The translations under genes were made by a program, and so were the position numbers. Positions 3,881-6,800 of a stretch of 64,000 nucleotides of DNA are shown in pieces (positions within the stretch are counted from its first letter, which is position 1; the number at the start of each line of letters is the position of its first letter). The stretch is from positions 248,001 to 312,000 of the forward strand of contig NMRA01000130.1 of assembly GCA_002633005.1 (NCBI GenBank), in the 5' to 3' direction. The notes under the pieces are model-generated. The model did not search any database, was not told the origin of the DNA, and worked only from the letters and a program-made list of their open reading frames with translations. Source of the DNA: Phoronis australis. Its lineage: Eukaryota; Animalia; Phoronida.

Positions 3881-6800
3881 CTGTAAAGGATACGCAGTCA
3901 GCCATGAACAGCAGCTCAACATGCAAGTCAATAATATAAGCTACTGACGAGTAAAAAGTCACAATGGACTAACCGGCGACAAAAATGTCAATGACTTCTG
4001 TGCGTATACTTAAACCTCATTTACATTACACAGAAACTAGGTACAAAATGAAACAGTTCTCGATTCGCGCGCTTATAAAGTATCTTGCACCTGGACCCAG
4101 CTGATAAGGAAACTAATTACTTGAAATACCCCCAAGGTGGAACAAATGATGTCTAATTGTGTGGATCGACATAACACCGATGTGTTCAAACATCTTGCAC
4201 TCAAATTTCAGCGTAATGTAAAAAATGTTCACGATATTTAATCACGGGTGAGAAACAACATGACCGCCGGTCCTCTTAAATCGGACCGCCTCACCCAAAA
4301 CAGGACNACTGCCGACGACTGGATTAATGAGTTAGCAATACTGTAAATTAATTCCTGCTGATGAGAACTGCTTCAGCTTATGCATGAAAACTGGGTTAGT
4401 CGGCCATGTTGGACAGGACAGAAACTCTGAAGAGACAACATGAGTTAGGGACACTGTATACAGAGTTATAAGGTCAACTTACGAATTTACCTCGCTTTAA
4501 ATTGTTGAACACATCCATCTTTTAAGAAATGAGGCGTTCTCGCTAAAACTGAATACTTAAGCGCTAACTTACCAAGACAACTGCCATATCAAATCCAGTA
4601 AATGCTTTTTTAAATAATACTGCAGAAATCTAATTCATAAAAACAATTTTTAGCGATACTGGAAGTATTCGCATTTTTAGGTCCGGTCAGGACGCCACCT
4701 GTTGGCCATATCATGTGACCTAGTGAACATAGGTCTGAAAAAAGTTAGCGACATACATTTCCATGGCGGTTTAACAATTACATATTTATGTACTTAAGTA
4801 TTCACAAAATGAAACGGCAATCATAATGGTTTGTAGAGTCCGTGCTCATTGTTCCTTCTGAAGTATTACGCTGAACAACCAAAACATGAGAGGGGCTTCA
4901 AAGGTAAATACACATGTACTTTAGAAGTACCACACTAATCAAAGTTAATTACAATAGGTACTGGACGTTCCTGGGAAAATGAAGCAGGAACTTACGGCTT
5001 AGTGCACTTTGAGTTAACAGTTCCACATCACTGCTTAACACAAATTGCGCCCAAAAATACAACTGAAGGAGAAAATAAAAATATGGTAAATGTGAATGGA
5101 ATAACTGCAAACTTTGTAATCCAGAAATCGGCACCAGAGGTAAGTACCAGATATATTTAAACAGGGCGACTTTTATTCAAATGGCTCACTTTGCGCAGAA
5201 CTTTTTTCTAAAACAATTAGAATTCAGAATTTCATACGAAATTTGGGTCACTCAGTATAAGATATAGTATCAAGAAAACATTTACGACTGATTTTGCAGT
5301 ACTATTTCTCCAACAAAACTACATGTACATTTCATAAAACACATCCAGGAGACAGATTCAGCATTTCAGGTGTATCAAGATCCGATTCATCTGCGTAGCT
5401 CAAAACATTGGAGTTATCTCCCACTATTTCGGTCACTTCCAGGCAGCAATCTGGAGGAGCTAAACCTAACTTCAAATTTTCGTAATGACAAGTTTTGCCA
5501 CGTTTTCCACAATGAACGCTGACTGGGAAAAAACTCAACGAATCGTGACTGTAGTTCGGTAAATCAACACAGACTTGATGTCCAGACGAACTTGACTCTT
5601 CCGATTCTGATAATACATGGTAAAACGATTTTCCAATTCTCAGCTCTGGTGTTGCAAGTGGGCTGTCTTCGAAGTACAGCAGAGATACTGGCGAATCGCT
5701 GGTTGACTCTACCAAGCTGAACCCAGACGGCACTGGTAACAGTTGAACAACAGATGGCTCTGGTGTAAATTCCACACTAGGTGGCAGCAGCATCTGAGAG
5801 TCTGGTTCAGGACTTTGGCCAAGTAGCCGTGACACAAGAATGCCGTGACTGGTGAATTGTTGATTGCAATCTGAACCACATTGTATAGACTGATCACATT
5901 GGTGGCTACTGCCATTTTCACACTGAAAGGGATGAAGTGCTGGATGTTGGTGCGAGTCTTCCAAATCACCATTCTCACGCAACATGCAATGGTCAGACCA
6001 ACTTCCATCCGGTTCACCACCTACATGGCCAGTCACATCACTAGCGCTCTTGGAAACGATGCTTTCCTGTTGCACACGCAACCCGTCTTCTTCATAATGG
6101 TCAGAAACTGATCTCTCATCCTGAAACCGTCTGCCATTCACAAAGTCATCTGACAGATGATGTACGACTGGTCCTAACAGCGACTGGCAGTAATTCCTGC
6201 AGATAGTGTTCTCTTTGACGAAGGATGAAAAGTACCCACCGCACTCTCTGGGCATCTCTCCAGAAATAATTCGTTCAAGGTTCTTTAGAAAGTCCATCAG
6301 CCTATACGATAACAGTGTGCAGACAAAGTTCATGAAAAGCTTGCTGCTGCAGTCATGGTAGGTTTTTTGCGACCGCGGAGGACTTGAATCATCGTTGCAT
6401 TCACGACAAGTTGTCAGGTGCCTACATCCCAGTTTTTGATTCGTATGTGAGTGGCGAGACCTAATGGAGATTTCGGGAGTTCTGCCAGGGAAAATGACGG
6501 CCGAAACGACACAGGCGTGCAGGACGAGAGAGAAAGAAGAAGCAGATGAAAGAGTATCGACTGAAATGGATGCAGACGTTATGAAAATGAAGAAATGGCC
6601 GACGACAATGAGAGATATTGATAACCGCGCATCAGCTGAATAAGTTGCTTTGCTGGTATCACGAACAAGTGTTCATTTCATTAACTCAATCAATGTGTTT
6701 TTACTGACATTTGGGATGTTCACACAAGCCAACTTTGACTAACAGGTGGTGGATGAACAGCGAAGACGGTCATCAAATATCTAAGCAGGGCTAGAAAAAT

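What the first reader, a model, noticed from the sequence alone, without database searches (positions are those of the whole stretch)
5172..6672. Hidden 446-codon frame in the last RAR intron: candidate alternative terminal exon replacing AF-2 (TRalpha2-like isoform)
Seen: the track's 333-aa ORF stays open upstream to a TGA at 6675..6673, giving 446 sense codons on the RAR strand in AT-rich intron DNA. The preceding exon ends in phase 1 (SISVK-G|gt). Two acceptors, at 6560 (after a long pyrimidine tract) and 6635, are phase 1 and in frame. An AATAAA follows about 155 nt after the stop. Splicing would give a receptor of about 932 or 957 aa with intact DBD and helices 1-10 but an S/E/D/H/C-rich tail instead of helix 11/12. 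Known: vertebrate TRalpha2 and RARalpha403 lack AF-2 and act as repressors or dominant negatives. Inference: the locus may encode a switch between activator and repressor isoforms by alternative last exon. I recognise no transposon or other domain in the tail.
Basis: partly seen in the sequence, partly recalled or inferred. Interest (0 to 1): 0.85.

Follow-up and report, generated by a model that had tools for sequence, protein, structure and literature searches.

The report
Transcribed orphan frame inside RAR intron
The last intron of an invertebrate's retinoic acid receptor gene holds a real 446-codon reading frame with no relatives found, well transcribed in two of three RNA samples, but no splice joining it to the receptor showed up, so it is likely a separately started RNA, and the proposed alternative receptor ending remains possible but unproven.

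Summary
The frame is real: 446 codons (6672..5335, minus strand), a GC-raised block in the last intron of a mollusc-like RAR. Acceptors 6560 and 6635 are phase 1 and in frame; AATAAA lies at 5177. No homologue turned up in any search, and no transposon ends. RNA covers the block on the RAR strand at about 6 times intron background in runs X1 and X2, but near background in X3. Coverage starts near 6560-6600, so 6635 looks unused. No 8289-to-block splice was listed (3-read threshold, about 18% of each run read), while the normal 8289-to-3880 splice had 6, 8 and 16 reads and is not depleted where the block is high. If all block RNA came through that splice, missing it has probability 0.03-0.17. 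Listed variants are neutral-like (6 of 19 synonymous). Best reading (0.40): a separately started nested RNA. The alternative last exon stays at about 0.30. Even if real, 'activator/repressor switch' fits poorly: molluscan RARs are reported not to be activated by retinoic acid, and the cut would also remove the strand used for corepressor binding. The scan had not found this on other DNA.

The parts
5332..6672 (-). 446-codon open frame plus stop; Ser/Leu/Val/Asp/Glu-rich; residues 180-446 without regular structure in a low-confidence model; no homologue found
   Evidence: real, not chance; no hits; mean pLDDT 36
5300..6600 (-). Transcribed block, approximate edges; mean depth 7.2 / 6.8 / 1.3 in X1 / X2 / X3 against intron background 1.1 / 1.1 / 0.9; RAR strand only
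6561..6600 (-). Candidate splice acceptor before 6560 (phase 1, in frame; 73-nt AG-free zone); use not shown
   Evidence: no joint listed
6636..6660 (-). Weak acceptor before 6635 (in frame); depth over 6602-6719 is 0.68 / 0 / 1.03, so it looks unused
6482..6540 (-). Strong pyrimidine tract and acceptor before 6481, out of frame with the 8289 donor (would give a 22-residue tail); use not shown
6300..6700 (.). CpG-undepleted patch (observed/expected 1.08 against 0.41 in the intron upstream); candidate internal promoter, inferred
6331..6333 (-). First in-frame ATG (333-aa product), preceded by out-of-frame ATGs at 6632, 6427, 6400, 6392 and 6356
5172..5177 (-). AATAAA, candidate poly(A) signal; cleavage not shown
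   Evidence: no end pile-up listed
8289..8447 (-). RAR helix-9/10 exon, ends in phase 1; spliced to 3880 in 6 / 8 / 16 reads and in one X4 contig
3780..3880 (-). Normal RAR last exon (helix 11/12, AF-2); 3' UTR covered to at least 3000
9786..9990 (-). RAR LBD exon, also ends in phase 1; spliced to 8447 in 11 / 12 / 34 reads
11468..11926 (-). RAR hinge/helix-3 exon (predicted; outside the RNA lays) with a Ser/Pro/Asp-rich insert and Val where vertebrate RARs have Phe
15254..15456 (-). RAR hinge exon (predicted)
15672..15813 (-). RAR second zinc-finger exon (predicted; ends in phase 1)
18625..18791 (-). RAR first zinc-finger exon (predicted)

Best explanation
The 446-codon block is a real coding-type segment transcribed on the RAR strand, and most of its RNA is likely made as a separate unspliced unit, from an inferred internal start near 6600 to an inferred end near the AATAAA at 5177, rather than by splicing onto the receptor. 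Shown: the open frame, the GC block, stranded coverage in 2 of 3 runs, a level uncoupled from RAR, normal RAR splicing across the intron, and no listed joint into the block. Inferred: the promoter (CpG-undepleted patch 6300-6700), the poly(A) site, and any protein. If translated from ATG 6333 it would be a 333-aa lineage-restricted, mostly disordered protein under weak constraint. A minor RAR-fused isoform through acceptor 6560 is not excluded and may be why the frame is open upstream of the ATG.
For: No joint of any kind was listed in 4950-8460 for 3 of 3 runs, while the normal joint from the same donor had 6, 8 and 16 reads. Missing it has probability 0.03-0.17 if all block RNA came through 8289->6560. 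Block/3'UTR depth is 0.76, 0.86 and 0.08, yet last-exon/exon-9 depth is flat at 0.64, 0.59 and 0.67 and the junction ratios are 0.55, 0.67 and 0.47, so the block does not visibly draw RNA away from the normal last exon. A rough count of partly laid reads leaves about -7 and 0 reads for loose ends at the block in X1 and X2. Depth falls from 7.5-8 to about 4 to 0-0.7 over 6366-6719, as a transcript start would give. CpG observed/expected is 1.08 at that edge.
Against: The frame is open for 76 codons between 6560 and the first ATG (chance about 0.018), and four out-of-frame ATGs lie in between. Both suit an exon read from upstream better than a stand-alone gene. The GC edge and the coverage edge also fit acceptor 6560, which is in phase. 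No pile-up of read starts was listed. The junction-ratio test alone is weak (1.5 log-likelihood units against 45% diversion). Depths are 4-15 reads, only 18-19% of each run was read, and 5 joints and 32 loose ends were not shown. If half the block RNA came through the splice, it would stay unlisted 37% of the time. 6 of 19 listed variants are synonymous against 31% expected without selection, which gives no sign of a constrained protein.
Confidence: 0.4

Rival explanations
1. Alternative last exon of RAR: a regulated 8289->6560 splice would give a receptor that keeps the DNA-binding domain and the helix-10 dimer surface but swaps helix 11/12 for a 409-residue, mostly disordered tail. It would likely act as an AF-2-less competitor for RXR and response elements.
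For: Phase-1 in-frame acceptor with a 73-nt AG-free zone; frame open for 76 codons before any ATG (p about 0.018); GC block running from about 6600 to the stop; coverage edge within 6484-6601, right strand, roughly 10-fold variation between samples; AATAAA downstream; weak coding periodicity (p 0.03 and 0.009 against stop-free random frames); no stop among 19 listed variants and no indel listed in the block.
Against: No joint listed in 3 of 3 runs (p 0.03-0.17 if it were the only source); normal last exon not depleted in X1 and X2; neutral-like variants; no fused relative among proteins of 782-2230 aa (weak evidence), and none among the 6 RAR hits of 395-546 aa.
Confidence: 0.3
2. The reads come from another, 97-98% identical copy elsewhere (a recent duplicate or a mobile-element frame), and the intronic copy is a passenger insertion.
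For: At 16 of 19 listed block sites every X1 and X2 read differs from the window, whereas none of the 18 listed 3'UTR rows is fixed across X1-X3 (213 rows not shown). Neutral variant pattern. The level is uncoupled from RAR.
Against: No second copy in the window; no terminal repeats, LTR or poly(A) tail seen; no Pfam, NCBIfam or viral hit. Block reads lie on one strand only, unlike the repeats in the same intron. X3, at background level, carries both window-like and variant reads, as two alleles would. X4 differs from the window at 19 of 770 3'UTR letters, so allelic divergence of 2-3% is ordinary under this species label.
Confidence: 0.15
3. The block is spliced from a donor other than 8289, such as the phase-1 RAR donors at 9786 or 15672, or an unknown first exon further upstream.
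For: Both donors are phase 1. Such a joint would lie outside one search's stretch and could be among the 5 joints hidden or the 32 loose ends hidden.
Against: The rough read budget leaves about no partly laid reads for the block. 9786->8447 is well supported in all runs.
Confidence: 0.12
4. Chance open frame covered by unspliced pre-mRNA.
For: X3 is near background; variants look neutral; no homologues.
Against: 0 of 3000 simulations reach this length; depth is about 6 times intron background in X1 and X2 with a defined 5' edge.
Confidence: 0.03

Closest known systems
Mammalian TRalpha2 (alternative exon 10 of THRA; PMC3047299, passages read)
   Same: A nuclear receptor gene with a possible alternative 3' exon that replaces the activation helix with an unrelated tail.
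   Different: TRalpha2 splicing is proven and uses an alternative 5' splice site in exon 9 and a downstream exon overlapping Rev-erbalpha. Here the candidate exon lies upstream of the normal last exon, shares its donor, is 409 codons long and has no shown splice. That paper also reports marsupial loci with a conserved acceptor and no TRalpha2 mRNA, a warning against trusting acceptor anatomy alone.
RAR403 dominant-negative RAR (PMC4569375, passages read; its truncation point is recalled)
   Same: Would keep DNA binding and RXR dimerisation and lack helix 12.
   Different: Engineered, with no added tail. The cut here would fall about 13 residues earlier (near RARalpha 390; numbering recalled) and remove the S3/H11 segment, whose I396E mutation weakens N-CoR binding (10.1101/452482, passages read), so strong repression cannot be assumed.
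Lophotrochozoan RAR (Platynereis LBD, PDB 6EU9; Littorina XP_070186582.1)
   Same: Best PDB match for all three LBD exons tested; C-terminal five residues identical to Littorina RAR; Val at the helix-3 position where vertebrate RARs have Phe.
   Different: Long Ser/Pro/Asp hinge insert; the intronic frame has no counterpart in the fetched proteins (none over 562 aa).
Nested intronic genes and lineage-restricted orphan ORFs (general class, recalled)
   Same: Long frame inside a host intron, own expression pattern, no homologues, predicted disorder.
   Different: Same strand as the host with an in-phase acceptor at its edge; upstream out-of-frame ATGs; promoter and translation not shown.

Membership tests
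TRalpha2-like AF-2-less splice isoform | In-frame acceptor compatible with the upstream receptor exon | tested here: met
   6560 and 6635 are phase 1 and give stop-free fusions
TRalpha2-like AF-2-less splice isoform | Spliced mRNA joining the receptor exon to the alternative exon | tested here: inconclusive
   No joint listed in 3 of 3 runs at a 3-read threshold with 18-19% of reads; p 0.03-0.17 if it were the only source
TRalpha2-like AF-2-less splice isoform | Use at the expense of the normal last exon | tested here: inconclusive
   Last-exon/exon-9 depth 0.64, 0.59, 0.67: no depletion seen, but counts are low
TRalpha2-like AF-2-less splice isoform | Own poly(A) site | tested here: inconclusive
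   AATAAA at 5177; X2 coverage fades near 5300, X1 near 5650; no end pile-up listed
TRalpha2-like AF-2-less splice isoform | Dominant-negative or repressor activity | not testable with these tools
   Needs a reporter assay
TRalpha2-like AF-2-less splice isoform | Frame conserved in related species | not testable with these tools
   No animal genomes are held; protein searches returned no close relative carrying the hinge insert
Nested intronic protein-coding gene | Transcript level independent of the host gene | tested here: met
   Block/UTR depth 0.76, 0.86, 0.08; a regulated exon could give this too
Nested intronic protein-coding gene | Own transcription start | tested here: inconclusive
   Coverage edge at 6484-6601 and CpG patch, but no start pile-up
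Nested intronic protein-coding gene | Purifying selection on the protein | tested here: inconclusive
   6 of 19 listed variants synonymous against 31% expected; 46 rows not shown; small sample
Transposon or viral insertion | Recognisable domain or protein homologue | tested here: not met
   0 hits in Pfam, NCBIfam, PDB, viral contigs and 1.84 billion representatives; no transposon library was available
Transposon or viral insertion | Terminal repeats, target-site duplication or poly(A) tail | tested here: not met
   None seen around the block
Transposon or viral insertion | Multiple genomic copies | not testable with these tools
   Genome not held; single copy within the window
RAR (NR1B), host gene | RAR-type DBD and LBD with normal splicing | tested here: met

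The most novel reading that the evidence does not exclude
A lophotrochozoan RAR gene has a sample-regulated alternative last exon (8289->6560) that replaces helix 11/12 with a 409-residue orphan tail. It would be a natural AF-2-less RAR isoform arising independently of mammalian TRalpha2, in a lineage whose RAR no longer answers to retinoic acid, so that exon choice rather than ligand would tune the RAR/RXR dimer.
Probability: 0.3. Interest if true: 0.62.

Novelty: new member of a known kind. Interest (0 to 1): 0.4.

Why it matters
How ligand-insensitive molluscan RARs are regulated is open (PMC7827873, passages read). A regulated exon swap at helix 11/12 would offer a ligand-free control and is testable with one RT-PCR. 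If the block is instead a nested orphan unit, it is a modest example of a lineage-restricted intronic gene, and a warning that an in-phase acceptor with a long frame does not prove an isoform. Paper searches listed no report of an invertebrate RAR with an alternative C-terminal exon (titles and abstract starts seen). The library lacks most subscription papers, and I read no supplements.

Tried and rejected
Homology for the 446-aa frame: Pfam 0; NCBIfam 0; PDB sequences 0 at E up to 10; 5.8-billion set, 0 of 4683 candidates at 245-781 aa and 0 of 5753 at 782-2230 aa (shorter lengths not searched); 1.84 billion representatives 0; exact look-up absent; viral contigs 0 of 16 stretches. The one metagenome hit (1 of 219, L001) is rejected: it contains stops and lies opposite a gene on the other strand. 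The protein atlas gave no result. Folding: whole frame pLDDT 36; residues 95-185 pLDDT 53, helical, with no Foldseek match and best Z 5.9 at rmsd 5.5 over 87 residues among generic helical proteins; uninformative. A hidden duplicate of the RAR last exon is rejected (shuffle p 0.21-0.95). No LxxLL match and no match to the longer CoRNR-type pattern; a loose short pattern matched once (patterns recalled). Rfam finds only a tRNA-like repeat at 8649-8722. No RNA holder was listed by the index, so the runs laid were found by species label. X4 contigs do not cover the block, which shows nothing about absence. No whole genome is held, so copy number and orthologues were not tested. Acceptor 6635 rejected as a main site. 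No N-terminal RAR exon found in the 129-aa frame at 19162-19548. Scan look-ups by sequence, words, near place and relatives found nothing.

Full report
Host gene. The window's first 19 kb hold an RAR on the minus strand, with exons 18791/18783-18625, 15813-15672, 15456-15254, 11926-11468, 9990-9786, 8447-8289 and 3880-3780, giving 475 aa from 18783. All three LBD exons tested match PDB 6EU9 best (that it is the Platynereis receptor is recalled). The best protein hit is Littorina RAR, which ends in the same five residues. So the animal is likely a lophotrochozoan and probably a mollusc (inference). The last two splices are confirmed: 9786->8447 in 11, 12 and 34 reads and 8289->3880 in 6, 8 and 16 reads of runs X1, X2 and X3, and both in one X4 contig.

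Observation. The frame 6672..5335 has 446 sense codons. The longest frame in 60 simulated windows was 224 codons, and 0 of 3000 intron-length simulations at the block's composition reached 409. The block is 46% GC against 38-39% in the flanks, with edges near 6600 and at the stop. It has weak coding periodicity (p 0.03 for chi-square, 0.009 for first-position G, against stop-free random frames). Acceptors 6560 and 6635 are in frame with the 8289 donor and give 850 and 875 aa counted from 18783. I could not reproduce 932/957 because I found no N-terminal exon. 6560 has a 73-nt AG-free zone; 6635 is weak; an out-of-frame acceptor at 6481 is at least as good as 6560. AATAAA lies at 5177.

What the protein is. 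No relative was found in Pfam, NCBIfam, PDB, the 5.8-billion set at 245-2230 aa, 1.84 billion representatives or viral contigs. The single metagenome hit is spurious. Single-sequence models are low-confidence: a helical stretch at residues 102-178 and no regular structure beyond 180, with no meaningful fold match. No terminal repeats or second copy were seen in the window. The genome is not held, so copy number and conservation are untested.

RNA. The index listed no RNA holder; three raw-read runs and one contig set came by species label. About 18-19% of each raw run was read. Over 5304-6601 the mean depth is 7.2, 6.8 and 1.3, against 1.1, 1.1 and 0.9 over 6602-7545, all on the RAR strand. 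Relative to the RAR 3' UTR this is 0.76, 0.86 and 0.08. Depth runs 7.95 and 7.5 (6366-6483), 3.81 and 4.29 (6484-6601), then 0.68 and 0 (6602-6719) in X1 and X2. That fits either a sharp edge at 6560 or a transcript start near 6600, and argues against 6635. At the 3' side X2 fades near 5300 and X1 near 5650, which I cannot explain. No joint was listed in 4950-8460 (threshold 3 reads from 2 starts). Scaling from the normal junction, 2.8-4.6 reads per run were expected, so the blank has probability 0.03-0.17 if the splice were the only source, 0.37 if it gave half and 0.80 if a quarter. The normal last exon is not depleted in the two high samples (last-exon/exon-9 depth 0.64, 0.59, 0.67), though the junction-count test alone is weak. 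A rough budget of partly laid reads leaves about none for the block. Five joints and 32 loose ends were not shown, so a splice from a more distant donor is not excluded.

Variation. Of the 40 difference rows shown (46 hidden), 19 fall in the frame: 6 synonymous, 13 amino-acid changing and no stop, against 31% synonymous expected without selection. No indel was listed there. At 16 of the 19 sites all X1 and X2 reads differ from the window. This could mean another locus. But X3 shows both types at background depth, X1 shows two types at 6005/6010, and X4 differs by 19 of 770 letters in the 3' UTR, so alleles suffice.

Mechanism. Sequence anatomy favours an exon: 76 open codons precede the first ATG (p about 0.018) and four out-of-frame ATGs lie between 6560 and 6333. 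The reads favour a separately started, unspliced RNA, with a CpG-undepleted patch at its 5' edge (1.08 against 0.41 upstream). I commit to the separate unit at 0.40, with the alternative last exon at 0.30, another locus at 0.15, another donor at 0.12 and chance at 0.03. These odds are my judgement, not a computed result. The first two can coexist, with a minor fused isoform beside an internally started RNA.

If the isoform exists. It would keep the DBD and helix 10 and lose the 33 residues of the last exon. TRalpha2 is the known parallel, described as a weak dominant negative, and marsupials keep its acceptor without making the mRNA (PMC3047299; passages). An activator/repressor switch is doubtful. 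Molluscan RARs are reported not to bind or be activated by retinoic acid and likely to repress constitutively (PMC8060629, PMC7827873; passages), and full-length oyster RAR already acts as a dominant negative in zebrafish through a Val/Phe pocket difference (10.1101/2025.03.09.642214; passages). This RAR has Val where vertebrate RARs have Phe in helix 3; that this is the position named in that paper is my inference. The cut also falls before the S3/H11 segment, where I396E weakens N-CoR binding (10.1101/452482; passages; residue mapping recalled), unlike RAR403 (PMC4569375; passages; truncation point recalled). So the isoform might relieve repression or sequester RXR rather than repress more strongly (inference).

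Novelty. Searches listed no invertebrate RAR with an alternative C-terminal exon (listings and abstract starts only; no supplements read, and bioRxiv supplements are closed). AF-2-less nuclear-receptor isoforms and nested intronic genes are both known kinds. The scan holds no look-alike; one unchecked note describes a similar intronic candidate last exon in this genome's Tdrd7. Interest 0.40 overall and 0.62 if the splice is shown.

Noticed in passing
window 11600-11926 (-): The RAR hinge exon carries an insert of roughly 100 Ser/Pro/Asp-rich residues with four spaced Asp-Thr-Pro motifs, absent from the Littorina and crinoid RARs fetched; possible phosphorylation sites (inference). Not checked in RNA.
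   Followed up: partly
window 8565-8916 and 4675-4755: Repeat with 83-nt inverted arms around a tRNA-like core (8649-8722, Rfam RF00005, 34.5 bits) and a related arm in the last intron; draws many reads from both strands; likely a SINE/MITE-type family.
   Followed up: partly
window 8166-8285: A 24-bp tandem repeat starts within a few bases of the 8289 donor and could affect its use.
   Followed up: no
window 6481 (-): Strong out-of-frame acceptor inside the block; a splice from 8289 would give a short AF-2-less RAR with a 22-residue tail. No joint listed.
   Followed up: partly
window 8296: Variant in the RAR helix-9/10 exon at 9 of 10, 3 of 9 and 0 of 18 reads in X1, X2 and X3: present in the two runs that express the block, absent in the one that does not; haplotype-linked expression is possible.
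   Followed up: no
window 19162-19548 (-): 129-aa open frame just upstream of the first zinc-finger exon, with no Pfam hit and no good phase-1 donor; the RAR N-terminal exon remains unplaced.
   Followed up: partly
window 50557-51232: Long triplet microsatellite giving poly-Ser/Ala/Leu frames on both strands, followed by a 73-nt tandem repeat.
   Followed up: no
window 3000-3779 (-): The RAR 3' UTR is covered to at least 3000, and no AATAAA lies between 3780 and 3000, so the UTR is long and its end is unmapped.
   Followed up: no
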